Origin: a virus
Lineage: Duplodnaviria; Heunggongvirae; Uroviricota; Caudoviricetes
IMG/VR virus record: IMGVR_UViG_2690316152_000009
DNA length: 21,027 bases
Reading direction: 5' to 3' (one strand)
Shown here piece after piece: positions 1,003-14,687 of this stretch. Positions within the stretch are counted from its first letter, which is position 1. Each line of letters starts with the position of its first letter. A program made the translations under genes and the position numbers. The notes beneath the pieces are model-generated. The model had not been told where the DNA came from, ran no database searches, and saw nothing but the letters and a program-made list of their open reading frames with translations.

Positions 1003-1007
1003 TTTAG

Positions 1008-1384: not shown

Positions 1385-2035
1385 TTACAAATTAAAAAAT
1401 GCCCTAGAAATGACACCACCTACCAAAACCCCTACGCAGATAAAGAATATTATTTCTTTTGGATAAAGTCGGATTAATTCTGAAGCACGAAGTCGGACTT
1501 CTGGTAAGGTCGAACTCTCTGTGTGGCTTGATGCCGATTGTTGCTCTAACCACGACAATGCAGACTGTAACTGAGAACGAGTAAGATCGTTTAAACGTCC
1601 TGTACCGAAATTGATATGGCAATACCGCAGAAGTTTTTGTCGAAGTCCACAGTCTTCACTGTTACGTAGTAATAAACTTACAAGAGCCTTACAGGCATCA
1701 TGATCTTTACATCGCTCAAGCATTGCATGCAGAAAACTCTCCGCTGTTTTATATTGATTTACTGTCATATCATCAATACCAGTTACACCAATCTCCGCAT
1801 GTACTTTTTGCCAAATAATAAACGCTTCAGTATTGCTAGCTTCTGCAATAGCAGCAACCAAGCTATTTAGCTCCTTACGCTGAGCCTTAAGCAAAGGGCG
1901 ATCGTCATCATCATTATTCGAAGGGATTGCGATATTGACGGTCTGAGAACCATCATATCGCTCTATCTGAATATTCTTTTCGTGAAAATCACGCCCAGCA
2001 ACGCGATTGTTTGAACCGTTTGAGTTGACGGCCAT
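1385..2035 (-). CDS. C-terminally membrane-anchored (tail-anchored) protein of unknown function
   Basis: 216-aa ORF; GGGAGG SD 6 nt upstream; single hydrophobic segment at extreme C-terminus (EIIFFICVGVLVGGVISRAFFNL); N-terminus carries NNRVAGRDFHE motif shared with C-terminus of upstream repressor. Confidence 0.6.
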   Translation of the reverse strand: MAVNSNGSNNRVAGRDFHEKNIQIERYDGSQTVNIAIPSNNDDDDRPLLKAQRKELNSLVAAIAEASNTEAFIIWQKVHAEIGVTGIDDMTVNQYKTAESFLHAMLERCKDHDACKALVSLLLRNSEDCGLRQKLLRYCHINFGTGRLNDLTRSQLQSALSWLEQQSASSHTESSTLPEVRLRASELIRLYPKEIIFFICVGVLVGGVISRAFFNL

Positions 2036-2050
2036 GTCACCTCCCTACTA

Positions 2051-2455
2051 TCACCTACCCTTAGTTTCGTTATAGTCACGACCAGCGATACGGTTATTAC
2101 CACCAGAAATATTTAACTCACGTCCTGATGGCTGAGTTTCCTTTTCACTGATCGCACCTTTTAAAGCCCCAATCACCGCATTTTTCACATCTAACGAAGC
2201 TGCTCGAAAGCGAGTAATCAACTCCTGCTCATCATCGTTATAAGTTTCAGGTGAGTGAATTCCCAACACAACATACTGAACATCAAGGCCAAAACGAGAC
2301 AGCGCTGCCAAATACGCAGCATCAGGAAAGCTATCTCCTTTCTCATATCTAAGCTGAGTTAGCTTTTTGACTCCACCAATGTCGCTCATGGCAACTTGAC
2401 TAAGTCCCAATCTTTCCCTTTCCTCACGCAACCGCTGACCAATATCATTTTTCAT
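2051..2455 (-). CDS. HTH (XRE-family) transcriptional repressor, putative immunity repressor (P2 C / 186 CI positional analogue)
   Basis: 134-aa ORF; N-terminal HTH (LREERERLGLSQVAMSDIGGVKKLTQLRYEKGDSFP); first gene leftward of divergent switch region, as P2 C. Confidence 0.75.
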   Translation of the reverse strand: MKNDIGQRLREERERLGLSQVAMSDIGGVKKLTQLRYEKGDSFPDAAYLAALSRFGLDVQYVVLGIHSPETYNDDEQELITRFRAASLDVKNAVIGALKGAISEKETQPSGRELNISGGNNRIAGRDYNETKGR

Positions 2456-2530
2456 ACAAAAACCTTGACAGGTATCTTTTTTGATACCAAAATGATTTCA
2501 CGAGCTATTAGATGATCACAATATACCACT
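2456..2530. promoter_or_regulatory. Divergent lysis/lysogeny switch region with perfect inverted repeat GGTATC-N6-GATACC (2471-2488) overlapping a candidate rightward promoter (-35 TTGACA 2465-2470, weak -10 CAAAAT 2488-2493)
   Basis: 75-bp intergenic region between divergent repressor gene and early operon; palindrome and -35 hexamer read directly; -10 assignment weak. Confidence 0.4.
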
Positions 2531-2737
2531 ATGAAACAAGTTCTTCACGATACCAGATCACGCATTCCGCGTAACACCGCCACAGGTCCAAGACTGGCAC
2601 TTCGGCTGTCCCTCGAGGAGCGAGCCGTCATTGATGAAATGGCAGCTAAAGAACAACGCTCATCCTCTAACATGGCGCGCATGATCTTCCTTCGCGGCCT
2701 AGAGCTAACCCAGAAAGAACAAAACAAATCTTCCTGA
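2531..2737 (+). CDS. Small putative ribbon-helix-helix DNA-binding protein (first early gene)
   Basis: 68-aa ORF; RLALRLSLEERAVIDEMAAKEQRSSSNMARMIFLRGLE resembles RHH (Arc/CopG/MobC-like) pattern; no obvious SD, start uncertain. Confidence 0.45.
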   Translation: MKQVLHDTRSRIPRNTATGPRLALRLSLEERAVIDEMAAKEQRSSSNMARMIFLRGLELTQKEQNKSS

Positions 2738-2753
2738 TCAGGAGGCTAGTGGG

Positions 2754-2957
2754 ATGTCAGGTATAACCATCAATATCAATGTGAATGCCCCCTATGTATC
2801 CCTGCAGAAATATGCAGAGATAACAGGTATCCCTCTTAATACATGCAAAAAGATGTTGGCTGACGGTCGAATTATTATCCGACCCAAACGCGCCAAAATG
2901 GAAAAGCCTGAAGTAAACCTTGTGGCGATGTTAAAAGACGCTTTGGCTAACAGCTAA
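2754..2957 (+). CDS. Cox/Apl/AlpA-like HTH excisionase-regulator
   Basis: 67-aa ORF with GGAGG-like SD (caggaggctagtggg ATG); HTH segment VSLQKYAEITGIPLNTCKKMLADGRI typical of AlpA/Cox/Xis-type proteins; position matches P2 cox / 186 apl. Confidence 0.6.
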   Translation: MSGITININVNAPYVSLQKYAEITGIPLNTCKKMLADGRIIIRPKRAKMEKPEVNLVAMLKDALANS

Positions 2958-2978
2958 AACAATGAACAGAGCACCATC

Positions 2979-3329
2979 ATGAAAAAAAACGCTAATAATC
3001 CATACTCCAAATTTCGTAATGGCGTAGAACGCCATGTACACCACGTCGCTACCAGTGCATCACGTAGTAACAGTCGCTATAACCTGAACGAGACGCACGC
3101 AACACCGGATGGCCACGCTGTAAAACAAATCGGCGAGCATGCCTGGCTGATTGAGAAAGCTGGAATCGTGGTCCACAAATGCCCACGCAATCCGTTTACC
3201 GGAAACCGCATTTTTGCATTGAACTGCGGCGACAATCACTTCGGGCAGGATTTCACATTATACGAAGCACTTCGCACGGTTGATCGTCTGCTTCGCGGGC
3301 AAAGTTTTATTAAACAGGCTGATTTATAA
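2979..3329 (+). CDS. Hypothetical early-region protein
   Basis: 116-aa ORF in early operon, co-oriented; no recognisable motif. Confidence 0.5.
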   Translation: MKKNANNPYSKFRNGVERHVHHVATSASRSNSRYNLNETHATPDGHAVKQIGEHAWLIEKAGIVVHKCPRNPFTGNRIFALNCGDNHFGQDFTLYEALRTVDRLLRGQSFIKQADL

Positions 3330-3339
3330 CAGGTGCTTT

Positions 3340-3618
3340 ATGACCAAAGAGCATGCACAAGGTGTATTTATCCGTTTTATTGATTTTCGCGGTGAACTGT
3401 TATTACGCGCATCAGCCATTGACGGAGTTGTTCCATCCGAAAAAAACGCAGCTACTTACGTTTATCTGAACGGTACGCGCCTGACTGTGGAGCTTCCGTA
3501 CCAGACCGTACGAGAAATCATTAGCGAAGCTGAAAAGGCACGTCAGGTTAATGGCGATGAACCCTATATCGAAATTATTTGTATGGATTCAGAAGCTGAA
3601 ATTCAGAAAGCAGATTAA
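3340..3618 (+). CDS. Hypothetical early-region protein
   Basis: ORF track frame 3280..3618; ATG at 3340 preceded by AGGTG SD is the more plausible start (about 92 aa). Confidence 0.5.
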   Translation: MTKEHAQGVFIRFIDFRGELLLRASAIDGVVPSEKNAATYVYLNGTRLTVELPYQTVREIISEAEKARQVNGDEPYIEIICMDSEAEIQKAD

Positions 3619-3626
3619 AGGGCGTT

Positions 3627-3872
3627 GTGATGGGCAAAGAATATAAAACTCTCATTAACAAAGCACTTGAGCGTTTTTATTTTCGCTTAAGTGCATCAGG
3701 CGCTCATGCTGAACGTGCGGCCCGTGACTCATTGACCAGAGCAATCCGAAGTCTGTATGACGTGGCTTTTTACGCTGATGATCTGGATGCACTTAACGAA
3801 CTTTCCGAGCTGATCTATGCCGCAGAATGCGGGGAACATATTGAACCGTATAAGCTGGGAAATATCGCATGA
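3627..3872 (+). CDS. Hypothetical early-region protein
   Basis: 81-aa ORF (GTG 3627 or ATG 3630); stop overlaps next ATG (ATGA). Confidence 0.5.
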   Translation: MMGKEYKTLINKALERFYFRLSASGAHAERAARDSLTRAIRSLYDVAFYADDLDALNELSELIYAAECGEHIEPYKLGNIA

Positions 3873-3982
3873 GTATATTTATCTCATGGCTTGTTCTGAT
3901 TATTTCGGTGGTCTGCGCCATTGGGATTATGCGAATTATTAATTCAGTAAAAAAGATTGAACGCTTTTTCACTGAAGAATAA
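3869..3982 (+). CDS. Small hydrophobic (single-TM) peptide, 37 aa
   Basis: ATG overlaps upstream stop (ATGA coupling); translation MSIFISWLVLIISVVCAIGIMRIINSVKKIERFFTEE; not in ORF track because it is short. Confidence 0.35.
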   Translation: MSIFISWLVLIISVVCAIGIMRIINSVKKIERFFTEE

Positions 3983-4068
3983 CCGCGCAAATAAGACCCC
4001 AGGTTAAATAAGAAAATGTGAAAACAATCCGCATTCGCGGAGGTATTCGCACACGCCAAGGAGGCGTA

Positions 4069-4272
4069 ATGGCAATTAAGCATTTTCCCGTCGTTCGTTT
4101 CACCTCCAAAGGACGTGAATACGAAGTTGACGAACGCCTGATTACCACAATCGACAAACACCGTTCAGAAAAGGATGCACATCACATCTATCTCACTGAC
4201 GGCACTTACTTTTGCGCCACCAACGTGGTGCAGGTAAATCTTATCAGACAGGTACAGGAGTCACGCAGATGA
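4069..4272 (+). CDS. Hypothetical early-region protein
   Basis: ATG 4069 preceded by AAGGAGG SD (4057-4063); about 67 aa; same frame as ORF-track 4018..4272. Confidence 0.5.
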   Translation: MAIKHFPVVRFTSKGREYEVDERLITTIDKHRSEKDAHHIYLTDGTYFCATNVVQVNLIRQVQESRR

Positions 4273-4514
4273 CCATTCTGGACTACATCGCTGCCAATCC
4301 GGGTTGTAGCGGTGGAGAAATCGCCGCAGCACTGAATACACCAACCACAACCATTAATGCGGAGCTACGCCGTCTCTGGCGCAGCGGTTCAGTCATAAGA
4401 AAAGAGCGCAAAACAGGCGGTCGCTTTTCTTATCAGGTAAACCCGATGCCGTTTGGGTGTAGCAACCCACTAACCCAGATGTTCAACCAGCTACTGAGGG
4501 AAATCAGAGCATGA
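4269..4514 (+). CDS. Small putative winged-helix DNA-binding protein
   Basis: ATG 4269 overlaps upstream stop (ATGA), AGGAG SD 8 nt upstream; about 81 aa; MTILDYIAANPGCSGGEIAAALNTPTTTINAELRRLWRSGSV resembles wHTH regulators. Confidence 0.5.
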   Translation: MTILDYIAANPGCSGGEIAAALNTPTTTINAELRRLWRSGSVIRKERKTGGRFSYQVNPMPFGCSNPLTQMFNQLLREIRA

Positions 4515-4655
4515 GCACCTCCAACTGCCGGAAACCACGTCGGGCTTCAGCAGCTCATCCGGCAGCAAAACAAACTCCATTAATTCCTGTTCCGGGTCTT
4601 TCCTGCACCTTGTGGCGGGAGGCCTTCGCACATCTGTAACAAGAGGATTGCCGCA

Positions 4656-5021
4656 ATGATTCTCGCCAACGACTTTCTTGAATACCTGCTCAACACAGAG
4701 CGTGATCTTGCCGTTCGCGTGCGTGAACGTTATGACATGTACCTGAAATCCCAGCTTGTACCGCAGCTCGCTGACGGAAAGATTGTTATTGATGGTCGCT
4801 ACATGATTGACAGCCACGAGGGAAATTACAGGCTTTACCGCATTGAAGGTGGCACCCCGTCCGTTATTGGCATTTACCAGCGCCCATCCTCTGCAATCGT
4901 CAATGTGATTGCCGACAGCATCCGCATCACACATCGCCATGCCGACACAGAAGACACCGTGCTGGAAATTCAGCGGCTGGCTACAGTCTGCCGCGACACC
5001 CTGAATGGCATGACGAAGTAA
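4656..5021 (+). CDS. Hypothetical protein immediately upstream of gene A
   Basis: 121-aa ORF with AGAGGA SD; co-oriented with A. Confidence 0.5.
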   Translation: MILANDFLEYLLNTERDLAVRVRERYDMYLKSQLVPQLADGKIVIDGRYMIDSHEGNYRLYRIEGGTPSVIGIYQRPSSAIVNVIADSIRITHRHADTEDTVLEIQRLATVCRDTLNGMTK

Positions 5022-5027
5022 ATCACT

Positions 5028-7850
5028 ATGACGGCAGAGTACATCAGGGACTGGCAACAACCGCGCCACGCAGTGGGGCGTGAAGGAACGGGGATCCCCG
5101 CTCCTGAATCCGCGCTTTCCTCCTGGCTGGATGCCTACCGGGCAGAGAACGAGCGCCGCCAGGAAATGGCTGATGCGGCGTTCTCCGCCACGCCGCTGGG
5201 CAACCTGATTAATAAAAGCCTAGACGCACAGGAAAAACAGGACAAAACAATCACACTGGCAGGAGACGCCAGAAAACAGGCACGCGGCGCGGTAGATGAG
5301 GCCATGGCCTCACTGCGCCTGCTGCCGTCCTATCTGCGCGATCCGCTTATTCGCCACCTCTCCTTCCTGCGCAAAAAACAGGAAGCCGATCGTCAGCAAG
5401 GAAAAAACGCCAGGCAGGCAGAACGCTATGCGCGTGGGACCCTGCGCAAAATATTCGAACGTCTGGAGCGCACCGATCACCGCTGGCTGACATCGGGTTA
5501 TCGCTCCCTTGCCGGACGTGAACGCCTGGACGATTTGATTTACCTGCCGCAACTCAACAAACACCAGATACAGACGCTGGCCACCATGACGGCGGCGATG
5601 TTCAGCAGCACCTTCGAAAAACTCTGCGATGGTTTTGGCGCGACTGATGGCGAGCTGACCATGGATGTAACGCTGAAGGCGTATCAGATGCTGGCCCGCA
5701 TGGCGTTACACTTACACGCCATGCCTCCGCATTATGACGCACTGACAACAGACAAAGACCGGAGGCACGAACCGGACACAGAACTGCTGCCGGGCGCAAT
5801 CCTTCGCCTGACCTGTGCGGAATGGTGGAAACGCAAACTGTGGCTGTTACGTTGCGAGTGGAGAGAAGAACAACTCCGCGCCGCCTGTCTAGTTTCCAGA
5901 AAAACATCGCCCTATCTGAGCCAGGACGCGTTAAGCGAGTTTCGCGCACAGCGCGAGAAAACACGCGATTTCCTGAAAAGTTTCATGCTGGAAAATGAAG
6001 ACGGGTTCACGATTGATCTCGAGACGGTGTATTACGCGGGAGTAAGTAACCCGGTTCACCGTAAGGCAGAAATGATGGCCACCATGAAGGGGCTGGAACT
6101 TCTGGCCGAAGCCCGTGGCGACAAAGCGGTGTTTCTGACTGTCACCTGCCCGTCAAAATACCACGCCACAACGGAGAACGGTCATCCGAATCCCAAATGG
6201 AACGGGGCCACAATGCGCGACTCCAGCGATTACCTGGTTAACACGTTTTTTGCGGCGGTCCGCAAAAAACTGAACCGCGACGACCTGCGCTGGTATGGCA
6301 TCCGCACGGTGGAGCCTCATCATGACGGCACCGTGCACTGGCATATGATGGTCTTTGCACATCCGGAAGAAATCGACACCATTGTGTCCCATACCCGCGA
6401 TATTGCCATTCAGGAAGACCGCCACGAGCTGGGCAATGATATTACTCCGCGCTTTAAGGTGGAGTATGTCGACGGCTCAAAAGGCACGCCAACCAGCTAC
6501 ATCGCCACCTACATCGGAAAGAACCTGGACAGCCGCGCCGTGGATGGCATCGACCCGAAAACGGACAAGCCACGCGTGGACCACGAAACCGGAAAATCAA
6601 TGGCCGAGAGCGTGGAACGCGCCATCGGCTGGGCGCGTCTTCACCGCGTCCGCCAGTTCCAGTTCTTTGGTATCCCCTCCCGTCAGGTATGGCGTGAACT
6701 CCGCCGCCTTGCCAGTCAGATGGCCCGCAACCCGGAAGGTCCACAACGTCTGGAAAATGACGCAATGGATGCGGTACTCGCTGCCGCTGATGCCGGGTGT
6801 TTTGCCACCTACATTGAGAAACAGGGTGGCGTACTTGTTCCACGCAAAGACTACCTGATTCGCACCGCCTACGACCTCGCAGAAGAGCTGAACGATTACG
6901 GCGAGCAAAGCGTACAGATTTACGGGATCTGGTCGCCACAAATCGGGGAATCTTCCCGCGTGTGCACGCACCCGGATAACTGGAAGCTGGTAAGACGTAA
7001 ACCGGAAGCGGAAGACAGCGCCCGCGAAAATGGTTTTGACCTTCAGGGCGGCCCTGCCGCCCCTTGGACTCGTGGCAATAACTGTCCCCGTGTACAGGAA
7101 ACGGACAACAACGGGACAGAACAGCCGGAAGAACGGCCAGCACCGTGGCCGCAGCTCCCTGACGGCGTTGAAGTGAACGAATGGATGCGCTCACTGAAAC
7201 GGCACGAACGCCGGGCGCTGATGCGTTCGCTTCGTGACAAACAGGCAAAAAACAGCAGTGATGAAATGCAGAGCTGGACACAGAGCCGCAAACAGCAGCG
7301 GCCTTTGCCTGATAACCACGAATTACTCGCTAAAGAATGGCGGGAGTCTGCTGAATCTCTCGGCCTGCATATCGGTGAACAGCAGATGCAGCACCTGTTA
7401 CGGGGCGGCAGTCTGTACGTTGACGGCAGCATCATTGCACCGCAGGGATTTGAAATTGTACGCAAACCGGATACCCGACCGGACAGCCGGATCACGCAGC
7501 TCTGGCAGCGCCTGAGCCGTAACCACGGCGTAAGCAGCACGGAGATCCGCCATAACCCGGTCGCCAGCTATCTGGAACAGCTGGGGGCATCAGACCCCGA
7601 AGCCGCCGCACGCCTGGCATCCACACTTCAGCAAGACCAGAACACCATGAAAACACCCGTTACCGTGCTTTCTGACATGCTGCGCGCCATCCGCGACGCA
7701 GAGCACGCACAGAGAATCAGTGAAACCACTGAACGCGCCCGCCGCAAAGCAGACCTGCTGCGAGGTGGCCTGACCAGTGGAAACAAAAAACAGACAGAAA
7801 CGGGATTCACAAATCCCGTAAATGAGCAAAAAACGCGCCGCGATATATGA
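5028..7850 (+). CDS. A: Rolling-circle replication initiator endonuclease (P2 gpA family)
   Basis: 940-aa ORF; HUH motif (VHWHMMVFAH) and dual-tyrosine motif (YIATYIGKN) characteristic of phiX174/P2 A-type Rep proteins; start codon may lie downstream (for example ATG 5167); long low-complexity C-terminal extension. Confidence 0.9.
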   Translation: MTAEYIRDWQQPRHAVGREGTGIPAPESALSSWLDAYRAENERRQEMADAAFSATPLGNLINKSLDAQEKQDKTITLAGDARKQARGAVDEAMASLRLLPSYLRDPLIRHLSFLRKKQEADRQQGKNARQAERYARGTLRKIFERLERTDHRWLTSGYRSLAGRERLDDLIYLPQLNKHQIQTLATMTAAMFSSTFEKLCDGFGATDGELTMDVTLKAYQMLARMALHLHAMPPHYDALTTDKDRRHEPDTELLPGAILRLTCAEWWKRKLWLLRCEWREEQLRAACLVSRKTSPYLSQDALSEFRAQREKTRDFLKSFMLENEDGFTIDLETVYYAGVSNPVHRKAEMMATMKGLELLAEARGDKAVFLTVTCPSKYHATTENGHPNPKWNGATMRDSSDYLVNTFFAAVRKKLNRDDLRWYGIRTVEPHHDGTVHWHMMVFAHPEEIDTIVSHTRDIAIQEDRHELGNDITPRFKVEYVDGSKGTPTSYIATYIGKNLDSRAVDGIDPKTDKPRVDHETGKSMAESVERAIGWARLHRVRQFQFFGIPSRQVWRELRRLASQMARNPEGPQRLENDAMDAVLAAADAGCFATYIEKQGGVLVPRKDYLIRTAYDLAEELNDYGEQSVQIYGIWSPQIGESSRVCTHPDNWKLVRRKPEAEDSARENGFDLQGGPAAPWTRGNNCPRVQETDNNGTEQPEERPAPWPQLPDGVEVNEWMRSLKRHERRALMRSLRDKQAKNSSDEMQSWTQSRKQQRPLPDNHELLAKEWRESAESLGLHIGEQQMQHLLRGGSLYVDGSIIAPQGFEIVRKPDTRPDSRITQLWQRLSRNHGVSSTEIRHNPVASYLEQLGASDPEAAARLASTLQQDQNTMKTPVTVLSDMLRAIRDAEHAQRISETTERARRKADLLRGGLTSGNKKQTETGFTNPVNEQKTRRDI

Positions 7851-7895
7851 AGCGCGCATAAAACAGGCAAAAACGGGATTTCAGAATCCCGTAAA
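7785..7895. repeat. Two copies of a ~38-bp element each containing an 8-bp-stem hairpin (ACGGGATT-N4-AATCCCGT) at the 3' end of gene A
   Basis: Copy 1 at 7785-7822 (inside A coding sequence), copy 2 at 7858-7895 (after A stop); hairpins at 7800-7819 and 7873-7892; on the minus strand each is followed by a T-rich run. Confidence 0.5.
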
Positions 7896-7926
7896 CGATT
7901 AATTAATCAACATAAGGAAAAGCGAC

Positions 7927-8328
7927 ATGAAAATTTGTATCGATGACGGCTCCACCAACATCAAGCTGGCATGGACTGAGAACGGCGAACGCCGCAACGC
8001 CATCAGCCCGAACAGCTTCAAGTCGGAATGGTCTGCGCCGTTCGGTGGCACGCAGCCCGCGAACTACATGCTTGATGGCGTGCGCTATGGTTTTGATCCG
8101 GTCAGCGATCGCTTTGTCCAGACAACTGACACGCAATACCAGTACAGCGATGTGAATGTCATTGCCATTCATCACGCGCTGGTCAAATCAGGCATCACGC
8201 CACAGGAGGTGGATGTGGTTGTCACCCTGCCACTGAGCGAGTATTTCGACACAAACGCACAGCCGGACATAGCCAACATCAACCGCAAAAAAAGCCCAGG
8301 ATTCCCGGGGCGGTTCAGAGGAGAGTGA
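7927..8328 (+). pseudogene. ParM/StbA-like actin-family partition ATPase, N-terminal fragment only
   Basis: MKICIDDGSTNIKLAW...ISPNSFK...YSDVNVIAIHHALVKSGI resembles the N-terminal about 125 aa of plasmid ParM/StbA (about 320 aa); reading frame runs into a 22-bp IS terminal repeat and stops. Confidence 0.6.
8296..8317. repeat. Solo 22-bp copy of the IS629-like terminal inverted repeat
   Basis: CCAGGATTCCCGGGGCGGTTCA is identical to 20461-20482 (terminus of the partial IS element); no IS body adjacent. Confidence 0.6.
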
Positions 8329-8330
8329 GA

Positions 8331-8822
8331 ATGCAAATTTCACCGGTTACTCTTCGTGTTGCGAAGGCGTTTATATCCAGACATCACCGACACAATAAAC
8401 CCCCGGTGGGGCATAAATTCAGCATTGGTCTGAGAAATGATGCCGGAGAATTGATAGGTGTGGCGACAGCCGGTAGACCTGTTGCACGACATTTGGACGA
8501 TGGATTAACGCTTGAAGTAAATCGCACATGTACCACAGGAGAACGCAACGCTAACAGCGCACTTTATGGTGCTGTCTGGCGGGCAGCAAAGGCTATGGGT
8601 TATCAACGTTGTATTACGTACACCCAGGCAGATGAATCAGGAGCATCTCTCCGCGCAGCTGGTTTTGTTCGTGTGAAAGAGCTTCCTCCAAGAAAAAGCT
8701 GGGCGGAATCAAGCGTCGCCCTGCGGAGTAAACGCGATCCGGTCGGAAACGGTGGTGTTCCTCGTGTGCTCTGGGAAATCAGGAGAATGAGTACCACTGG
8801 CATTCGCATCAAAGGAGAGTGA
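8331..8822 (+). CDS. Hotspot cargo protein, 163 aa, possibly GNAT-fold (acetyltransferase-like)
   Basis: ATG 8331 preceded by GGAGAG SD; weak by-eye match to GNAT core (segment TTGERNANSALYGAVWRAAKAMGYQRCITYT then LRAAGFVRV); stop TGA lies inside the SD of the next gene. Confidence 0.55.
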   Translation: MQISPVTLRVAKAFISRHHRHNKPPVGHKFSIGLRNDAGELIGVATAGRPVARHLDDGLTLEVNRTCTTGERNANSALYGAVWRAAKAMGYQRCITYTQADESGASLRAAGFVRVKELPPRKSWAESSVALRSKRDPVGNGGVPRVLWEIRRMSTTGIRIKGE

Positions 8823-9091
8823 TATGGCAACTTTGACAAAAAAAGAACAAGCATGGTTGAGCGAATTACAGGACGTTCTTGATCGCTGCCCATCACCGAA
8901 AAAAATTGGTTTTTACACCATTGGCGATAAAAGCATTTACCTGTATGACCTGCGCCGCATGGATGAAATCATGGAGGCTCTTGATAATCGTTCGTCAATG
9001 GATTGGTGTGTTGCTGTCCATGATATGAATGCAGGGTTTGATGAAAAGATTTTGTTCCCCTCATCAGTTGAAAGCACAGCAGGATAAGGAC
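8811..9091 (+). repeat. Direct repeat copy 1 (281 bp) carrying the coupling junction and the whole 87-aa gene
   Basis: Identical to 9497-9777 except one synonymous C/T difference (8889 vs 9575). Confidence 0.9.
8824..9087 (+). CDS. Hotspot cargo protein, 87 aa (copy 1)
   Basis: ATG 2 nt after upstream TGA, SD AAAGGAGAG; MATLTKKEQAWLSELQDVLDRCPSPKK...; no recognised family. Confidence 0.6.
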   Translation: MATLTKKEQAWLSELQDVLDRCPSPKKIGFYTIGDKSIYLYDLRRMDEIMEALDNRSSMDWCVAVHDMNAGFDEKILFPSSVESTAG

Positions 9092-9097
9092 TAACAC

Positions 9098-9508
9098 ATG
9101 ACCACTATTACCAAAGAACGTATTGAATTGTTCATTAAAAATCCGCTTGAAAACGGGCTTACTCGTGACGAACAAATGGAACTGGCACGAATTGCACTGG
9201 CATCGCTGGAAGCAGAGGCAGTTATGTTCTGTATATCAGGACAAAATGTAGATTCAGAAGAACATGTATCAACCAGCAAAGCGGTTGTTGATGCCTGGGT
9301 TGAAGAATGGAATCAGGTTGACGGAAGTCCTGGCGAACCACTGTACAAAACTATGCCACTCTACTATCACGCTGCCTTGCCAGCGCCGGTAGTGCCGGAT
9401 GAAATGTATTGGCAGGATGCGCCAGTTGAAGGCAGCAGCAAAGCGGCTGCATACGCTACAGGCTGGAACGCCTGCCGCGCCGCTATGCTTCATGGGAAAG
9501 GAGAGTGA
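9098..9508 (+). CDS. Hotspot cargo protein, 136 aa, acidic
   Basis: ORF between the two repeat copies; its last codons (KGE-stop) lie in repeat copy 2; no recognised family. Confidence 0.6.
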   Translation: MTTITKERIELFIKNPLENGLTRDEQMELARIALASLEAEAVMFCISGQNVDSEEHVSTSKAVVDAWVEEWNQVDGSPGEPLYKTMPLYYHAALPAPVVPDEMYWQDAPVEGSSKAAAYATGWNACRAAMLHGKGE

Positions 9509-9777
9509 TATGGCAACTTTGACAAAAAAAGAACAAGCATGGTTGAGCGAATTACAGGACGTTCTTGATCGCTGTCCATCACCGAAAAAAATTGGTTTTT
9601 ACACCATTGGCGATAAAAGCATTTACCTGTATGACCTGCGCCGCATGGATGAAATCATGGAGGCTCTTGATAATCGTTCGTCAATGGATTGGTGTGTTGC
9701 TGTCCATGATATGAATGCAGGGTTTGATGAAAAGATTTTGTTCCCCTCATCAGTTGAAAGCACAGCAGGATAAGGAC
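9497..9777 (+). repeat. Direct repeat copy 2 (281 bp)
   Basis: See copy 1; offset 686 bp. Confidence 0.9.
9510..9773 (+). CDS. Hotspot cargo protein, 87 aa (copy 2, identical protein)
   Basis: Identical translation to 8824..9087; the ORF-track ORF 9399..9773 is the same frame read from an upstream in-frame start. Confidence 0.6.
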   Translation: MATLTKKEQAWLSELQDVLDRCPSPKKIGFYTIGDKSIYLYDLRRMDEIMEALDNRSSMDWCVAVHDMNAGFDEKILFPSSVESTAG

Positions 9778-9807
9778 CCAGCAAATATACACAACCTATA
9801 AAACACT

Positions 9808-9834
9808 AAAGCGCCTCAGGGGCGCTTTTTGTTT
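9808..9834 (+). terminator. Rho-independent terminator closing the cargo cassette
   Basis: GC-rich hairpin AGCGCC-tcagg-GGCGCT (9810-9826) followed by TTTTTGTTT. Confidence 0.7.
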
Positions 9835-10359
9835 GCACAAAAGTGCACAAATTTGCACAATTTTTTTGAACGACTTTTTACCCTTCCGGCCCGCATGGCG
9901 GCTGGATCCGTCAAGGATCCGTGCGTGCACAAAAAAACGCGCTTTTTCTGCGCGCAGGTGACGGGGGAACAGCCCGCGTTTCAGGGGGTAAATAGCATTC
10001 CCTGAACGATGTCGCAGAGACACAACAGAATGGCCATATTTCTCACGCTGAGCATGAAAAAGGCGTGAGGGCTTTTGATTTGATGGGGTGAAAGGTAAGG
10101 CCGTCAAAATCGCACTGAGGCAGCGAGAACATACAGTCAACGCGGTGGAATTGCGTAAGAGTCTGACCGTCGATGGTGGCGATAAACTGGAAGGCGTCGT
10201 GAAATTATCTGATTGATACAGGAGCTGGAGAGCCGGGGCATAAATTTTTTATGCCCCGGCGAAGCAGCAGACAAGCGAAGCGCGTCAGCGATACGGCACC
10301 TTGCCGACCATACTTCATAAGTGCAAAATACGAGCAAAGAAATCAATGGAGGCTGTCTT
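9835..10359. other. About 0.5-kb non-coding region, candidate cos/packaging and regulatory region
   Basis: No credible ORF; lies where P2 cos sits (between hotspot and Q); TGCACAA x3 at 10-bp phasing (9834-9860), GGATCCGT x2 (9904-9922), perfect 13-bp-stem palindrome (10232-10260); cos sequence itself not identified. Confidence 0.3.
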
Positions 10360-10884
10360 ATGGTCATTAATTACAAGCAGTTAAGAGAAAAACGGGAGCA
10401 GGTAAAGGAGAGCTTTCGCCGCAATGAAGATCTGACCCCGCTTGTACGCCTTGCCCAGGGCATTGTTGATGCTTATGAAATCTCGCTGGAGCTGCCATCA
10501 CAGACCTGGACAGATAGCGACGGTAATCGCCAGCATTACGTTTCATGCGGACTGGAAGCAGCCGAAGGATTTCGCAGAATGCCTTTATCCCAGATCCCTG
10601 CCGCTACCCCCAAAGCATGGGGCAGCAATGATGAGCGAAAACTGACTTTTAGTATTGAAACGGTGGTTGACGACACACCTGGCGAAGTCGCGTTCGTACA
10701 CACTCCTGTTTCGATCGCAATGTATAACGATGAAATACAGGTTCGCGTTAATAATAATATCGTGCCACTTAAAGAAGGTAATTCACCCTACACCACCGTT
10801 TGTGAAGCCATTCAATATTACGTTCTCTCTGAAATTGATAATCTCAAGCCTGACGGCACCCAGAAAATGGTTCAACTCTGGTAA
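10360..10884 (+). CDS. Stand-alone hotspot ORF, 174 aa, unknown function
   Basis: ATG 10360 with GGAGG SD 7 nt upstream; followed by bidirectional terminator; no recognised motif. Confidence 0.55.
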   Translation: MVINYKQLREKREQVKESFRRNEDLTPLVRLAQGIVDAYEISLELPSQTWTDSDGNRQHYVSCGLEAAEGFRRMPLSQIPAATPKAWGSNDERKLTFSIETVVDDTPGEVAFVHTPVSIAMYNDEIQVRVNNNIVPLKEGNSPYTTVCEAIQYYVLSEIDNLKPDGTQKMVQLW

Positions 10885-10885
10885 A

Positions 10886-10917
10886 AAGGACAGCCCCATC
10901 ACGGGGCTGTTTTTTCA
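10886..10917. terminator. Bidirectional intrinsic terminator between the hotspot ORF and portal gene Q
   Basis: Hairpin CAGCCCC-atcac-GGGGCTG (10891-10909) flanked by AAAAA upstream and TTTTTT downstream; overlaps the last codons of Q. Confidence 0.6.
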
Positions 10918-11945
10918 TCAAGAAGAGCATAAGAGTTAAAACGGATCACCTCTTCGCCAAGCCAGTCATTGATGTGCTTCATAGCCTCCATGACGGGCAT
11001 CAGCTCGTTAATTGCGTAAACCCGCGCTGCCTTCTCCACATCGCCAAACGCACTTTTTTCGCCCGGCATCGCCCCCATCAGTTGCGGCGGAACGCGGTGC
11101 GCAGCCAGCACATCATCACGGGATGCCGCCTTAACATTCATGAATTCATCTTTTGCGGTGATCTGCTGGAACGGCAAAATTTGCACCCCCTCTTTGCCCC
11201 CGTTGGGCGCATGAATGAGCACGTTTTTAAACGCACCACCACCACGTGCCCCCTGTAGCGTTTCTTTCAGGGAGTCCATGCTTTCGCGGTTTACCTGCGC
11301 TGCACCGATGTAGATGATGCACCCGGCGTGGGATCCGTTGTCGTAGTACAGTTTTCTGAACATGTCCGCCGAATGAGAAAGGCTGGCCGAGAGTAATGCG
11401 CCAAGATATTCCGGCATGCCGTAGATTTCCTGGTTAATATCCGGATTCATCAGGTGGCACACTTTGCCAGGACGAAACTGAAACGCGTCCTTGCCATCCT
11501 GCACATACCACCATGATTCAAGATCGCTTCCGCGTCGCATGTATTTCGCCAGGGCGTGCCGTAATTTAAGCGGTTCGCCGAGCATATTGCTTCGAAGCTC
11601 AAGGAATGCGTTACCGAACACAAACCAGTCCAGCGCCAGCGCCGAGAAATCCTGCCGGGAAAGCAGCGGGTGCGGGATGTAGCAACCGAGTAATACATTG
11701 CGCTTAAAGTAAAGCGCAGACTGATGCCAGGACGTTTGCCGGGCAGCTCTTGCCAGACCGTACCAGTCCACCGGGGTTTCATACCACCGCCCGTTATCAG
11801 CACAGTACATATTGTCCAGCAGGTCATGCCCGGTCAGGCGATAAGGACCATCAAATGTGAATGCACTGAGCGATGATTCTTTCCTGAGCGCATCAGCGAG
11901 ATCAATGCGTGAACTCATGCGCACTTTTTTATTTTTTCTGCTCAT
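10899..11945 (-). CDS. Q: Portal protein (P2 gpQ family)
   Basis: 348-aa ORF; size, position and P2-like order (Q-P divergent from O); recognised by similarity to P2-type portal from memory. Confidence 0.85.
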   Translation of the reverse strand: MSRKNKKVRMSSRIDLADALRKESSLSAFTFDGPYRLTGHDLLDNMYCADNGRWYETPVDWYGLARAARQTSWHQSALYFKRNVLLGCYIPHPLLSRQDFSALALDWFVFGNAFLELRSNMLGEPLKLRHALAKYMRRGSDLESWWYVQDGKDAFQFRPGKVCHLMNPDINQEIYGMPEYLGALLSASLSHSADMFRKLYYDNGSHAGCIIYIGAAQVNRESMDSLKETLQGARGGGAFKNVLIHAPNGGKEGVQILPFQQITAKDEFMNVKAASRDDVLAAHRVPPQLMGAMPGEKSAFGDVEKAARVYAINELMPVMEAMKHINDWLGEEVIRFNSYALLDEKTAP

Positions 11946-13696
11946 CAGAACTCCATAACTGTGAAACGCTCGTTTTCTCCTTCGCCGCCAATTGGTTCGT
12001 TAATGACAGCAAGCATGGTTGCCCACGCAAGGTCGCCGTGGCTGATCCCCCTCGCGCGGTCCGTTTCGTAAGTGATAAAGCCGCCCGGTGTTTTCACCTT
12101 ACGCACGGCGTTAAAGGCTGCGACCAGCTCGCGTTCGGCGCGATCGTATTCCCACCGCCCGGCACGCATTATTTGCAGCATTTTCAGTACCAGCGACCGT
12201 TTTGATGACAGCGTGAAGGTGTACGGAATAGCAGCAGGGAAAAACCGTTTCACTATCTGATAAACAGCCTCCCCGTTCCCGCCCGTCACATCAATGCCGA
12301 TGTGTTCCACGTTGTAGCGACACGTGAACTCTTCAATGACTCTGGCCTGTTCTTCAAACTCCAGCCCCTGAACGCGTCGCGTCTCCACCGTTCGAAAACG
12401 GCCACCAGGAACAGACGGAGGAACCACCACGGACACAGCGCCGCTGTCGCCGTTGCCACTGCTGCCGTTTGCGTCATACCCAATCCATACCGGACGATTC
12501 CCCATCGGGCGGGGAGCAAAAGGTTTCCAGTCTTTCCAGTCGTCGTATCCGTCAACACCACAGCCAATCAGGATATTCAGGTTAAATGCCGATTCCCCTT
12601 CGCGGACAAACTCACACATATAGAGATTGAGGAACTCGTCTTCGGTGTTTTCATCACGAATTTCATCAATATCGGTGTGTTTCCAGCCGTGATTAACCAC
12701 ATCTTCCAGCGTGACAATTTGCCGCCACGTCCGGTCAGGGCAGATAAGCCCGTTATGCAGCGTTTTCCAGTCCACAGAAAAACGCTGGCGTTTATGCGTG
12801 GCCTTTTTCTCGTTCCAGCGGTCGCCGTTCCAGTAGGCGTATGCCTCGTGCGTTTCGGTGGATGGCGTGGAGAAGTAGGTGCGCCGCAGTCCGCTGAGGG
12901 TTGCCATAGCGCCAGCCACCTTGCGCAGTTCAGCAAAGCGACTGACCCAGAAAAATTCATCAAAATAAAAATTGCCCGTATAGGACTGCGCCGACGCAGC
13001 AGAAGTGCCGAGAAAATGCAGCTCTGCGCCGTTGGAGAGGATGATTTTATCGCCCCCTTTCAGCTCCACATCAACTTCAGCCGCGGCCTTCTGAATAATG
13101 CTTTTAAACTGGAACGCCTGACGACGCGACGCAGACAAAAAAATCTGGTTACGCTGGTAAGGTTGCGCCACATCGTCACGCAGCGCCATCAGCAGTGCTT
13201 CCTGTGCAAAATACCAGGTCGCGCCAATCTGTCGGGATTTCAGGATCATCCTGTTACGTATCCCGGCTTCCCTGCAAAGGGTCAGGGAGTCAAACCAGCC
13301 CCGCTGATGCCACTCCAGCCTGCTGATGATTTTTTCCCGCAGTGCGACAATCTGTTCCGGCGTGAAATGATTTTTGAGTTTTTTCGCCCGGCCTTTCTTT
13401 CCTGTGGCCGTCGCATCCGGCTGGCCATCATGCATTTTTTTAAGCTGCCGGGTCAGCAGGTCTATTTCCTTAAAGTCACCGCCTGTTTTATTCTGTTTTT
13501 CAGTAAGCTGGATGAGGCGCGCATCGATGGACTGCGTGACACGCTGCACGGGTGGCGTTTCATCCCACTGGTCGCGTTTTTTCCACGCATAAATCGTGTT
13601 CGGGTTTATTCCCATCAGACGTGATATTTCTGCGGGCGGATAACCCTGCCAGTAAAGTTGCCGCGCACGCTGGCGCACAAAAGCGTCCTGAATCAT
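11945..13696 (-). CDS. P: Terminase large (ATPase) subunit (P2 gpP family)
   Basis: 583-aa ORF; ILKSRQIGATWYF ATPase motif typical of P2-type terminases; N-terminal HTH-like region. Confidence 0.9.
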   Translation of the reverse strand: MIQDAFVRQRARQLYWQGYPPAEISRLMGINPNTIYAWKKRDQWDETPPVQRVTQSIDARLIQLTEKQNKTGGDFKEIDLLTRQLKKMHDGQPDATATGKKGRAKKLKNHFTPEQIVALREKIISRLEWHQRGWFDSLTLCREAGIRNRMILKSRQIGATWYFAQEALLMALRDDVAQPYQRNQIFLSASRRQAFQFKSIIQKAAAEVDVELKGGDKIILSNGAELHFLGTSAASAQSYTGNFYFDEFFWVSRFAELRKVAGAMATLSGLRRTYFSTPSTETHEAYAYWNGDRWNEKKATHKRQRFSVDWKTLHNGLICPDRTWRQIVTLEDVVNHGWKHTDIDEIRDENTEDEFLNLYMCEFVREGESAFNLNILIGCGVDGYDDWKDWKPFAPRPMGNRPVWIGYDANGSSGNGDSGAVSVVVPPSVPGGRFRTVETRRVQGLEFEEQARVIEEFTCRYNVEHIGIDVTGGNGEAVYQIVKRFFPAAIPYTFTLSSKRSLVLKMLQIMRAGRWEYDRAERELVAAFNAVRKVKTPGGFITYETDRARGISHGDLAWATMLAVINEPIGGEGENERFTVMEF

Positions 13697-13850
13697 TGCT
13701 CCCCCTGAGTAATTACAGGAAGATTACCCGCGCGCGAAACCGTTCTCCTTACCCCCCTGTTCTGGCCGTTTTCTTACAACAAAAGCCCTTTGTATCAGCC
13801 TGTTACGCTTTGCCATCATGACTGAAGAACCAGTCAGAGGGGCAAAAACT
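13697..13850. promoter_or_regulatory. Divergent late-promoter region between P and O
   Basis: Positional inference from the P2 map only; no activator-site consensus could be confirmed by eye. Confidence 0.3.
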
Positions 13851-14687
13851 ATGGCTAATGAAAAAAAGACATCCCGCAAAAAGTTTCGCGTGGCTGTCTC
13901 CGGATCAACTGTTGATGGCCGCGAAATCAGCCCGGTACATCTGCGTGAAGCCGCCGAGAACTTCAACCCGGATGTTTACGCTGCCCGCGTGAACGTTGAG
14001 CACTATCTCTCGCCATGCCCGTCAAGCGAATTTTCCGCAATGGGCGATGTCACCGCGCTGAGTACGGAAGATATTACGGAAGGCCCGCTGGCCGGACGTA
14101 CTGCGCTGTATGCAGAAATCGAACCGACCGAGCGCATGAAGCAGCTTGTCGCTGACGGCAAGAAAATCTATTCCAGTATCGAACTGCACCCGCAGTTCTC
14201 CGTTAACGGGCGCGCCTATCTGGTCGGGCTGGCGATGACCGACACCCCGGCAAGCCTGGGCACTGAGCGCCTGAAATTCACGGCACAGCAACGTCAGGCG
14301 GTGATGACGTTCAACAGTATCCAGGGTGAAGCGCCGCTTATCTCCGAAGCCATTGAGTCTGAAATCATCGAAATGGCAGAACAACGCCAGGAAGAAGGCA
14401 CCCAGTGGTTTAACCGCGTAATGGGGATTATTGGCCGTGGCCGCAAAGCGGATGACGCCAGTTTTTCCCGTATTCAGGAAGCGGTGGAAGGCGTCGCAAC
14501 GTCACAGGCCGACATTATCGACCGTTTTAATGTGCTGGAAGCCCGCCATCAGCAGGACCGCCAGAAAATCACGTCACTGACCACAGAGCTGACAGCATTG
14601 AAGGAAAAACTGCGCACGCAGGACGGCGATCCGCAGAACCGCTTCACCGCAACGGGCGCAGCCTCCGACCAGCTGGCTGACTTCTGA
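13851..14687 (+). CDS. O: Capsid scaffolding protein (P2 gpO family)
   Basis: ATG 13851 (MANEKK...); KKFRVAVSGSTVDGREIS, YLVGLAMTDTPASLGTERLKF resemble P2 gpO from memory. Confidence 0.85.
   Translation: MANEKKTSRKKFRVAVSGSTVDGREISPVHLREAAENFNPDVYAARVNVEHYLSPCPSSEFSAMGDVTALSTEDITEGPLAGRTALYAEIEPTERMKQLVADGKKIYSSIELHPQFSVNGRAYLVGLAMTDTPASLGTERLKFTAQQRQAVMTFNSIQGEAPLISEAIESEIIEMAEQRQEEGTQWFNRVMGIIGRGRKADDASFSRIQEAVEGVATSQADIIDRFNVLEARHQQDRQKITSLTTELTALKEKLRTQDGDPQNRFTATGAASDQLADF

What the first reader, a model, noticed from the sequence alone, without database searches (positions are those of the whole stretch)
8296..8317. Solo IS629-type terminal repeat fused to the ParM-like fragment, identical to the IS end 12 kb downstream
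The 22-mer CCAGGATTCCCGGGGCGGTTCA occurs twice in direct orientation, at 8296-8317 (no IS body; it supplies the last codons and stop of the ParM fragment) and at 20461-20482 (true IS terminus). A lone terminal repeat implies an IS-mediated deletion or rearrangement scar that removed the IS interior and the 3' part of the ParM-like gene. The cargo cassette begins 14 bp after this scar, so its acquisition or expression context may have been shaped by IS activity.
Basis: seen in the sequence. Interest (0 to 1): 0.55.

Follow-up and report, generated by a model that had tools for sequence, protein, structure and literature searches.

The report
IS629 end scar in prophage
A 22-base leftover of a jumping gene (an IS629-type insertion sequence) marks where about 1.6 kb was deleted from the variable region of a P2-like prophage of E. 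coli; it is a real but ordinary and widely inherited deletion scar, not a working element.

Summary
CCAGGATTCCCGGGGCGGTTCA occurs exactly twice, at 8296-8317 and 20461-20482, both on the + strand, with 0 copies expected by chance. It is the outermost 22 nt of the left inverted repeat (IRL) of an IS629/IS1203-type IS3-family element.

The window is a P2-like prophage. The solo copy lies in its gpA-gpQ variable hotspot, at a deletion junction. Phage PhiR44_2 is 99.4-99.7% identical on both sides. It carries parM-parR-clpX-like-hyp-XF1762 intact, and the window lacks 1,604 bp of this.

The XF1762 cassette was therefore already at this locus. The IS did not bring it in; the event only removed the genes between the parM start and the cassette.

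The ParM' ORF reads through the 22-mer but stops 9 nt beyond it, in a conserved lambdoid-type linker.

The scar is old. The same junction is in 12 of 5,426 complete E. coli genomes, and the exact 133-aa chimeric protein is on at least 847 contigs. Strain 190693 carries the scar without the downstream IS, so the two events are independent. That downstream copy is itself a 676-bp stump.

No intermediate with a full IS was found.

A second deletion allele shares the same parM breakpoint to the nucleotide. This suggests an IS terminus once sat there (inferred).

Interest is low.

The parts
7851..10898 (+). Variable hotspot of a P2-like prophage, between the replication endonuclease gpA (5028-7850) and the portal gene gpQ (10899-11945, minus strand)
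   Evidence: RefSeq annotation of matching prophages. gpA has Pfam Phage_GPA and the portal has Phage_portal in sibling loci. The gpA-gpQ interval is a described hotspot of P2-like phages (PMC9122126).
7927..8295 (+). 5' fragment of parM (StbA/ParM N-terminal domain, codons 1-123). It ends with an A7 run (8287-8293) followed by GC; intact alleles have A6.
   Evidence: Pfam StbA_N, E=1.8e-63, residues 1-123. DNA is 98.6% identical to intact parM up to 8292. A7 versus A6 is shown.
8296..8317 (-). Solo remnant: the terminal 22 nt of the IRL of an IS629-type IS3-family element. The IS top strand is the minus strand, and the outer tip faces right, towards the cassette.
   Evidence: Exact match to the IRL tips at 20461-20482 and in L009, L141 and L142. 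Absent from intact relatives and from native cassette contexts.
8318..8330 (+). Lambdoid-type module linker GAGGAGAGTGAGA. It holds the ParM' stop (TGA, 8326-8328) and the Shine-Dalgarno sequence of XF1762. Base 8318 is G where every native linker has A.
   Evidence: Linker survey of all loci. Translation. Comparison with PhiR44_2.
7927..8328 (+). Chimeric 133-aa ORF: ParM residues 1-122 plus [11 protein letters not shown].
   Evidence: The exact protein is on at least 847 contigs, and the index lists it in 1,499 blocks.
8331..8822 (+). XF1762-family gene, the first gene of the 'cargo cassette'. It is now 13 nt from the scar.
   Evidence: NCBIfam NF045478, E=5e-61. Weak, sub-threshold Pfam match to the Mom family. 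No PADLOC hit.
8824..9087 (+). 87-aa gene (WP_000224220 type), second gene of the cassette. In 11 of the 12 complete genomes that carry the scar, this gene directly follows it.
19807..20482 (-). Truncated IS629-type element: IS nt 1-676 of 1,310 (IRL, orfA, start of orfB). Its inner break abuts the DUF1737/SASA gene of the prophage and its IRL tip abuts nleB2.
   Evidence: 99.7% identical to the full 1,310-bp copy in NZ_CP027391.1 and 95.4% to O157 IS1203. NCBIfam transpos_IS3.
20461..20482 (-). The second copy of the 22-mer: the IRL tip of the truncated IS.
20483..21027 (+). 3' part of nleB2 (nt 437-981), cut at its 5' side by the IS tip.
   Evidence: 100% identical to O157:H7 nleB2. NCBIfam NleB family, profile positions 154-329.

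Best explanation
The 22-mer at 8296-8317 is a dead remnant of an IS629-type (IS3-family) insertion sequence: the last 22 nt of its left inverted repeat. It was left at the junction of an IS-associated deletion in the gpA-gpQ hotspot of a P2-like prophage.

The ancestor looked like phage PhiR44_2: gpA, parM, parR, a clpX-zinc-finger gene, a 104-aa gene, XF1762, the 87-aa gene. The event removed 1,604 bp. That is parM from nt 369 onward, parR, the clpX-like gene, and the 104-aa gene except its last four codons. It also removed all of the IS except 22 nt.

Proposed order of events (inferred, about 50-60% confidence):
1. The IS inserted in parM right after ...AAAAAAGC, with its IRL towards the cassette.
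2. Its IRL end was then joined to DNA further downstream, finally to the linker in front of XF1762, deleting what lay between (IS-adjacent deletion).
3. The IS was then lost by an imperfect excision running from its other terminus to 22 nt short of the IRL tip. Such losses, with parts of the IS remaining, are described for IS3-family elements, especially with the IS-excision enhancer IEE.

In a sister lineage, the IS was lost cleanly after an earlier downstream deletion, or together with that DNA in one step. This gave the in-frame ParM'-Hyp fusion allele (L002 type), which has the same left breakpoint.

Later, XF1762 was lost from most scar carriers by deletion between the 10-nt AGGAGAGTGA linker repeats.

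Today the scar does nothing by itself. Its consequences are that the partition module is destroyed and that the cassette lies directly behind the parM 5' end. The chimeric ORF stops at the native linker TGA, 2 nt before the XF1762 ATG, so translational coupling could persist. Loss of the ParR autorepressor could raise transcription. Both of these consequences are inferred.

The scar is an inherited allele and is unrelated to the truncated IS 12 kb downstream.
For: Shown by tool results:
- The match to an IS629-type IRL tip is exact over 22/22 bases, terminal base included, with 0 expected by chance.
- PhiR44_2 is 99.4% identical to the window over 7001-8292, 99.6% over 8315-9091 and 99.7% over 9497-10950. 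It holds 1,604 bp where the window holds the 22-mer.
- O145:H28 strain 16003 has the same intact gene order.
- Native XF1762 contexts carry ...ATCAAAGGAGAGTGA and no 22-mer.
- The same junction is in 12 of 5,426 complete genomes, 2 IMG/VR contigs (one identical to window 1-9087) and 2 metagenome contigs, always in the same form.
- The exact chimeric protein is on at least 847 contigs.
- Strain 190693 has the scar in an intact prophage with no IS nearby.
- The L002-type allele (143 contigs) is a blunt 1,407-bp in-frame deletion with the same left end. The C after ...GC comes from the hyp gene, because no GCC parM allele exists in IMG/VR.
- All truncated alleles and PhiR44_2 share the parM codon ATA (PDI). 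The other intact alleles surveyed (about 100 loci) have ATG (PDM). So both deletion types arose in one narrow lineage.
- Two sequence changes sit right at the junction (A6 to A7, and A to G at 8318), whereas the flanks differ from PhiR44_2 at about 0.4% of sites.

From the literature:
- IS3-family excision with parts of the IS remaining, and IS-adjacent deletions, were seen experimentally (PMC8860574).
- IEE-dependent deletions of a few nt to more than 40 kb occur next to IS629, and IEE is an error-prone polymerase of the primase-polymerase type that tolerates primer and template dislocation (PMC9943667).
- Small remnants of IS ends are left after loss of other copy-out-paste-in IS (bioRxiv 10.1101/2023.06.07.543989).
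Against: - No intermediate with a full or longer IS was found, either at the parM site or next to the linker. Sources searched: 5,426 complete E. coli genomes, IMG/VR, JGI metagenomes, and six predicted ParM'-IS read-through proteins among 15 billion proteins.
- The proposed order needs one insertion plus three further events.
- The first base after the IS tip (G at 8318) is not the native base, so a simple 'IS tip joined to native target' needs an extra change.
- Neither scar junction shows microhomology, whereas the ISApl1 and IEE end-joining models expect 2-6 nt.
- Whether iee was present in the lineage was not tested.
- No + strand promoter was detected upstream of parM by the consensus scan, so the expression consequence is untested.
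Confidence: 0.8

Rival explanations
1. Same kind of scar, simpler history. The IS inserted just upstream of XF1762, at the linker. A single deletion then ran leftwards from 22 nt inside the IRL, through the rest of the IS and 1.6 kb of phage DNA, to parM nt 368. The L002-type deletion would be independent, and its identical left end a coincidence.
For: This needs only two events. The intact IRL tip abuts the linker, and 3 nt (TCA) are shared with the native sequence. Deletions that take the IS together with adjacent DNA, some leaving part of the IS, are known.
Against: Both deletion ends would lie at non-terminal positions. The L002-type allele, from the same PDI sub-lineage, breaks parM after the same nucleotide. 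For independent events that is roughly a 1-in-1,000 coincidence. No IS at the linker was found.
Confidence: 0.22
2. The 22-mer is templated 'filler' DNA.
For: There is no microhomology and there are extra or changed bases at the junction (A7, G at 8318), as in error-prone end joining. No IS intermediate was found.
Against: The copied stretch would have to end exactly at the IS terminal nucleotide. Templated fillers of this kind are not, to my knowledge, a usual outcome in E. coli. It does not explain the breakpoint shared with the L002 type.
Confidence: 0.04
3. The solo end is retained because it works. It could be a binding site for IS629 transposase supplied in trans, allowing one-ended or paired mobilisation. 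Or it could be a regulatory element: with the A7 run it forms a terminator-like hairpin on the minus strand.
For: The allele is widespread and invariant. On the minus strand CCCGGGAATCCTGGG followed by T7 folds at -16.2 kcal/mol, z = -2.2.
Against: - Invariance is expected from recent common descent.
- There is no inverted partner end in the window, and the two copies are in direct orientation.
- 22 nt is shorter than the IS3-family IR region generally needed for transposase binding (my own knowledge, not tested here).
- The bidirectional terminator at 10890-10910 already ends leftward transcription from the portal operon.
- The fold z-score is modest.
Confidence: 0.04
4. Chance match, or a conserved native part of the XF1762 cassette.
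For: None beyond its position next to the cassette.
Against: 0 copies expected by chance. It is absent from every native cassette context and from intact relatives. Eleven of the 12 scar-carrying complete genomes lack XF1762 altogether.
Confidence: 0.01

Closest known systems
IS629 / IS1203 group (IS3 family), left inverted repeat
   Same: 22/22 identity to the terminal bases of IS629-type IRLs (window copy, L009, L141, L142), and 21/22 to O157 IS1203.
   Different: Only 22 nt remain. There is no transposase, no right end and no target-site duplication, so it cannot transpose.
IS3-family excision and adjacent-deletion products: IEE-promoted IS629 loss, and the insertion-deletion-excision (IDE) model of operon formation (PMC8860574, PMC9943667)
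   Same: - An IS3-family element is involved.
- DNA next to the IS was deleted.
- The IS was lost with a small part remaining.
- Two genes were brought together into one transcription and translation unit.
   Different: This is a natural allele with no experimental history. IEE involvement is untested. No microhomology is seen at the junctions. The intermediate states are not observed.
Remnants of ISApl1 ends left after decay of Tn6330 (mcr-1), as reviewed in bioRxiv 10.1101/2023.06.07.543989
   Same: Loss of a copy-out-paste-in IS leaves a few bases of one end beside a cargo gene, which thereby becomes fixed in place.
   Different: That is an IS30-family element. Those deletions are close to IS length and use 2-4 nt microhomologies. 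Here another 1.6 kb was lost and the junctions are blunt.
gpA-gpQ (cos-proximal) variable hotspot of P2-like phages (PMC9122126; PMC13586616)
   Same: Same locus. Its content varies between near-identical phages, and pseudogene fragments are common there.
   Different: Neither paper mentions insertion sequences or transposases. Here the cargo is a ParMR module plus lambdoid ea22-region genes with no PADLOC defence hit.
ParMRC (StbA/StbB) partition system of plasmid R1
   Same: The truncated gene encodes the N-terminal domain of ParM (Pfam StbA_N). The deleted neighbour is a Plasmid_stab_B (ParR/StbB) gene.
   Different: Only codons 1-122 of 319 survive and ParR is gone, so the module is non-functional.

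Membership tests
Insertion sequence of the IS3 family (IS629/IS1203 group) | Two terminal inverted repeats | tested here: not met
   Only the outer 22 nt of one IRL is present. No second end lies within 3 mismatches on either strand, apart from the copy at 20461.
Insertion sequence of the IS3 family (IS629/IS1203 group) | orfA/orfB transposase with programmed frameshift | tested here: not met
   ParM coding sequence lies directly to the left and XF1762 directly to the right.
Insertion sequence of the IS3 family (IS629/IS1203 group) | 3-bp target-site duplication flanking the element | tested here: not met
   The flanks are AGC and GAG. Full copies show GTG/GTG and GGA/GGA.
IS-derived deletion scar (solo terminal remnant) | Sequence identical to a known IS terminus, including the terminal nucleotide | tested here: met
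   22/22 match to IS629-type IRL tips.
IS-derived deletion scar (solo terminal remnant) | Sits exactly at a breakpoint relative to intact relatives, and is absent from them and from the native context of either flank | tested here: met
   PhiR44_2, strain 16003, L005, L006 and L007.
IS-derived deletion scar (solo terminal remnant) | A relative carrying the complete IS at the same site | tested here: inconclusive
   None found in complete E. coli genomes, IMG/VR, JGI metagenomes or by exact protein look-up. Draft assemblies break at IS copies, so absence is weak evidence.
IEE-dependent IS excision product | iee gene present in the lineage when the event happened | not tested
   No IEE sequence was available to search with, and the event is old and phage-borne.
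IEE-dependent IS excision product | IS of a copy-out-paste-in family lost together with adjacent DNA | tested here: met
   An IS3-family end is present, and 1,604 bp of adjacent DNA is missing.
IEE-dependent IS excision product | Microhomology at the repaired junction | tested here: not met
   Junctions are blunt: parM ..AAGC|G against IS ..GTCT|CC. On the right only TCA is shared.
MITE (miniature inverted-repeat transposable element) | Both terminal inverted repeats and a target duplication on a short non-coding element | tested here: not met
   One partial end only.

The most novel reading that the evidence does not exclude
The scar and the L002-type allele are two surviving products of one natural insertion-deletion-excision series. 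That series was anchored at an IS terminus in parM.

It compacted a phage hotspot operon and placed the XF1762 (Mom-like?) cassette directly behind the parM 5' end. In both products the reading frame is kept, so the upstream ORF still stops at the native TGA beside the XF1762 start. In the scar allele this depends on the extra A.

This would be a rare natural trace of a process that has been shown only in the laboratory and is said to 'barely leave traces'. The two base changes at the junction would be the mark of error-prone IEE-type repair.
Probability: 0.35. Interest if true: 0.45.

Novelty: new member of a known kind. Interest (0 to 1): 0.25.

Why it matters
As it stands, this explains a pseudogene (parM') and a gene-order change in a widespread P2-like prophage lineage. 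It also shows that insertion sequences, not only recombination, remodel the gpA-gpQ hotspot.

It corrects the idea that the IS delivered the cassette. It also warns annotators that the 133-aa 'ParM domain-containing protein' is a chimera ending in IS-encoded residues.

If the nested-deletion reading is right, the locus offers a natural, datable example of IS-catalysed operon compaction. It could be tested by rebuilding the intermediate in a PhiR44_2 lysogen.

Tried and rejected
- **Intact IS at the parM site.** A query of 100 nt of parM left flank plus 100 nt of IS end found no junction in 5,426 genomes. The top hits were unrelated IS flanks with no similarity to the parM site.
- **Intact IS next to XF1762.** None found; only strain 190693 matched, through its 22 nt.
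- **First composite 600-nt query.** Uninformative, because truncated IS copies elsewhere outranked any junction.
- **Gapped and exact patterns for intermediates.** No hits in IMG/VR or in metagenomes.
- **Predicted ParM'-IS read-through proteins.** Six variants, none in the collection. A 123-aa 'partial' ParM ending exactly at the breakpoint exists on one contig.
- **Is ...AAAAAAGC a general hotspot with other partners?** Six further 18-mer hits in IMG/VR proved unrelated to parM, so they are chance matches.
- **Could L002's junction be a 5-nt microhomology event on a GCC parM allele?** No such allele exists in IMG/VR, against at least 120 loci matching the pattern with any base at that position; those tabulated carry G or A.
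- **Phylogeny from flanks.** The prophages are mosaic: the gpA 3' half is about 96-97% identical between carriers and the integrase regions differ. Only the parM 5' allele was informative.
- **Plasmid collection.** Only intact parM, no scar.
- **Papers not held.** Kusumoto 2011 and Ooka 2009 could not be read. Their content is cited second-hand from PMC9943667 and the bioRxiv review.
- **Defence function for the cassette.** No PADLOC hits.

Full report
**1. The observation**

The 22-mer CCAGGATTCCCGGGGCGGTTCA is present at 8296-8317 and 20461-20482, both on the + strand. There is no further copy on either strand even with three mismatches, and none in 100 shuffles. Beyond the 22-mer the two flanks agree at only 5 of 7 bases, which I treat as chance.

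The copy at 20461-20482 is a true IS terminus. It is followed inward by orfA (20102-20428, minus strand) and the start of orfB, both matching NCBIfam transpos_IS3.

Comparison with a full 1,310-bp copy in plasmid NZ_CP027391.1 shows that the window keeps only IS nt 1-676. That stretch is 99.7% identical to the plasmid copy and 95.4% identical to O157 IS1203.

The exact 22-mer is the IRL tip of this IS629-type isoform, also seen in strains 115 and B1.H1.18. The O157 IS1203 IRL differs at one base and the IRR at two.

**2. What the window is**

The window is a P2-like prophage of E. coli, laid out as follows.

| Coordinates | Strand | Feature |
|---|---|---|
| 1-1002 | - | integrase |
| 5028-7850 | + | replication endonuclease gpA |
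| 10899-11945 | - | portal |
| 11945-13696 | - | terminase |
| downstream of 13696 | + | capsid and lysis genes |

The prophage is cut at 19806, inside a DUF1737/SASA esterase gene, by the truncated IS. The IRL tip of that IS abuts nt 437-981 of nleB2, which is 100% identical to the O157:H7 gene.

Bases 1-9087 are identical to IMG/VR contig IMGVR_UViG_2648501784_000016.

The solo 22-mer lies in the gpA-gpQ interval (7851-10898). This is the known cos-proximal hotspot of P2-like phages (PMC9122126).

**3. Anatomy of the junction**

| Coordinates | Content |
|---|---|
| up to 8292-8295 | first 369 nt of a ParM/StbA gene (Pfam StbA_N, E=1.8e-63; 98.6% DNA identity to intact parM) |
| 8296-8317 | the 22-mer |
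| 8318-8330 | linker GAGGAGAGTGAGA |
| 8331-8822 | XF1762-family gene |
| 8824-9087 | 87-aa gene |

The chimeric ORF 7927-8328 reads ...[17 protein letters not shown]. The 22-mer supplies seven complete codons (PGFPGRF) plus the first base of an eighth, but the stop TGA (8326-8328) is in the linker.

The linker ...ATCAAAGGAGAGTGA(G/T)ATG is a conserved boundary between lambdoid ea22-region genes. In every native copy the base after TCA is A. Only scar alleles have G.

**4. Intact relatives**

Escherichia phage PhiR44_2 (PV340564.1) has the order gpA, parM (960 bp), a Plasmid_stab_B/ParR gene, a ClpX-zinc-finger gene, a 104-aa gene, XF1762, the 87-aa gene, a 174-aa gene, then the portal.

Its identity to the window is:
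- 99.4% over 7001-8292;
- 99.6% over 8315-9091;
- 99.7% over 9497-10950.

Relative to PhiR44_2 the window lacks 1,604 bp: parM nt 369-960, parR, the clpX-like gene, and the 104-aa gene except its last four codons. In their place it has one extra A in the A6 run, the 22-mer, and G for A at 8318.

O145:H28 strain 16003 has the same intact order. The cassette was therefore already at this locus and was not delivered by the IS.

In lambdoid prophages (strains S115 and 042) XF1762 is preceded by other genes that end in the same linker, without the 22-mer.

**5. Distribution**

The parM'-22-mer junction was found in the following places, always in the same form (A7, GC, 22-mer, G, linker).

| Collection | Carriers |
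|---|---|
| 5,426 complete E. coli genomes | 12: one with XF1762 (strain 190693, 100% identical over 7900-8800) and eleven where the 87-aa gene follows directly |
| IMG/VR | 2 contigs, one of them identical to window 1-9087 |
| JGI metagenomes | 2 contigs |

The exact 133-aa chimeric protein is recorded on at least 847 contigs, and the index lists it in 1,499 blocks.

The XF1762-less form is most simply a later 497-bp deletion between the two AGGAGAGTGA linkers. The reverse order cannot be excluded.

Strain 190693 carries the scar in an otherwise complete prophage, with no transposase gene within 16 kb. Its integrase region differs from the window's. The scar is therefore an old, inherited allele and is independent of the truncated IS 12 kb downstream. 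No complete genome has the junction at 19806/19807.

No plasmid record has the scar.

**6. A second allele with the same breakpoint**

Strains 266917_2 and PO06021 carry what I call the L002 type. Here parM is joined after the same ...AAAAAAGC directly to nt 108 of the 104-aa gene. This is a clean 1,407-bp deletion giving an in-frame 191-aa fusion that ends at the same linker stop. The exact protein is on 143 contigs.

The junction is blunt. The following C comes from the 104-aa gene, because no parM allele with GCC exists in IMG/VR. By contrast, at least 120 loci there match the same pattern with any base at that position, and those tabulated carry G or A.

All truncated alleles and PhiR44_2 share the codon ATA (PDIANINRKK). 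The other intact alleles I surveyed, from about 100 loci, have ATG. In the 439-bp 5' segment each truncated allele is closest to PhiR44_2, at 1-3 differences.

So two different deletions arose in one narrow lineage and end at the same nucleotide. I estimate the odds against this for independent events at roughly 1,000 to 1.

**7. Mechanism**

*Shown.* The 22-mer is IS-derived. It sits at a deletion junction. The cassette pre-existed at the locus. The allele is inherited.

*Inferred.* The shared left end is what one expects if an IS terminus once sat there, because IS-driven deletions have one end fixed at the terminus. My preferred history has three stages:
1. IS629-type insertion in parM after nt 368, with the IRL towards the cassette.
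2. The IRL end was then joined to DNA further downstream, finally to the linker.
3. Loss of the IS. In one branch the loss was clean (L002 type). In the other it ran from the far terminus to 22 nt short of the IRL tip (scar type).

*Support from the literature.*
- Laboratory work with IS3, with and without IEE, recovered IS-adjacent deletions, complete excisions, and excisions 'with parts of IS3 remained'. Homology at the ends was at most 6 bp (PMC8860574).
- IEE-dependent deletions from a few nt to more than 40 kb occur next to IS629 (PMC9943667).
- IEE is a polymerase of the primase-polymerase type that tolerates primer and template dislocation. This would fit the +1 A and the A-to-G change right at the junction, although that link is speculative.
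- Other copy-out-paste-in IS leave short end remnants when lost.

*Against.* No intermediate was found anywhere, there is no microhomology, and iee status was not tested.

*The rival.* The simpler history, an IS at the linker followed by one leftward deletion, needs fewer events but leaves the shared breakpoint unexplained.

**8. Consequences (inferred)**

The partition module is destroyed. XF1762 now follows the parM 5' fragment directly.

With A7 the chimeric ORF stops at the native TGA, 2 nt before the XF1762 ATG. With A6 it would run 24 codons further, overlapping the XF1762 start by about 70 nt. The L002 fusion is also in frame to the same stop. This could reflect selection for translational coupling, or chance (1 in 3 for each allele).

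In plasmid R1, ParR represses the par promoter (established knowledge). Its loss could therefore raise transcription of the cassette. However, the consensus scan found no + strand promoter between gpA and parM, so this is untested.

On the minus strand the scar plus the A7 run form a terminator-like hairpin (-16.2 kcal/mol, z = -2.2). I regard it as incidental.

**9. Verdict**

The scar is a new example of a well-known kind of relic. Interest is low, with a modest upside if the two alleles prove to be products of one natural insertion-deletion-excision series.

Noticed in passing
window 8811-9091 and 9497-9777: A perfect 281-bp direct repeat spaced 686 bp apart gives two copies of the 87-aa gene flanking a 136-aa ORF (9098-9508). 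PhiR44_2 and strain 190693 have a single copy. The IMG/VR contig identical to window 1-9087 ends inside the first repeat, which looks like an assembly break at the repeat.
   Followed up: partly
window 19806/19807 and 20482/20483: The truncated IS (nt 1-676) joins a DUF1737/SASA esterase gene of the P2-like prophage to the 3' 545 bp of nleB2 (100% identical to O157:H7). The tail genes are therefore missing, and a P2-like prophage is fused to an effector locus normally found in a lambdoid prophage. No complete E. coli genome shares this junction. As at the scar, the IRL side of the IS was kept and the IRR side lost.
   Followed up: partly
window 8800-8823, 9487-9512 and 8318-8330; many loci: The motif ATCAAAGGAGAGTGA(T/G)ATG recurs as the stop/start boundary between unrelated lambdoid ea22-region genes, both in lambdoid prophages and in the P2 hotspot. 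It seems to act as a short recombination linker. Loss of XF1762 in 11 scar-carrying genomes maps to it.
   Followed up: partly
window 8331-8822: The XF1762-family protein (NCBIfam NF045478) has a weak match, below the curated cutoff, to the Pfam Mom family, the phage Mu DNA-modification enzyme (E=1e-4, 22.4 bits against a cutoff of 27.1). It has no PADLOC hit, and its function in a phage hotspot is unexplored.
   Followed up: no
window 7800-7819 and 7873-7892: Two 20-bp palindromes of the form ACGGGATT....AATCCCGT lie 73 bp apart. One is in the 3' end of gpA and the other is just upstream of parM. They are candidate ParR-binding (parC-like) sites or minus-strand terminators.
   Followed up: no
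window 8288-8309, minus strand: The junction of the IS remnant with the A7 run creates a terminator-like hairpin, CCCGGGAATCCTGGG followed by T7, at -16.2 kcal/mol with z = -2.2.
   Followed up: partly
window 1-4055 versus 4541-19806: The prophage is mosaic. The integrase and early region is 98.7% identical to the yecA-linked prophage of cattle strain 115, which carries intact parMR followed by another IRL-side IS stump. The hotspot and late genes resemble strain 190693 and PhiR44_2.
   Followed up: partly
protein cluster (P0002, P0004): 188-aa 'plasmid partition protein' entries from complete genomes suggest at least one further truncated ParM allele with a different breakpoint. I did not examine them.
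   Followed up: no
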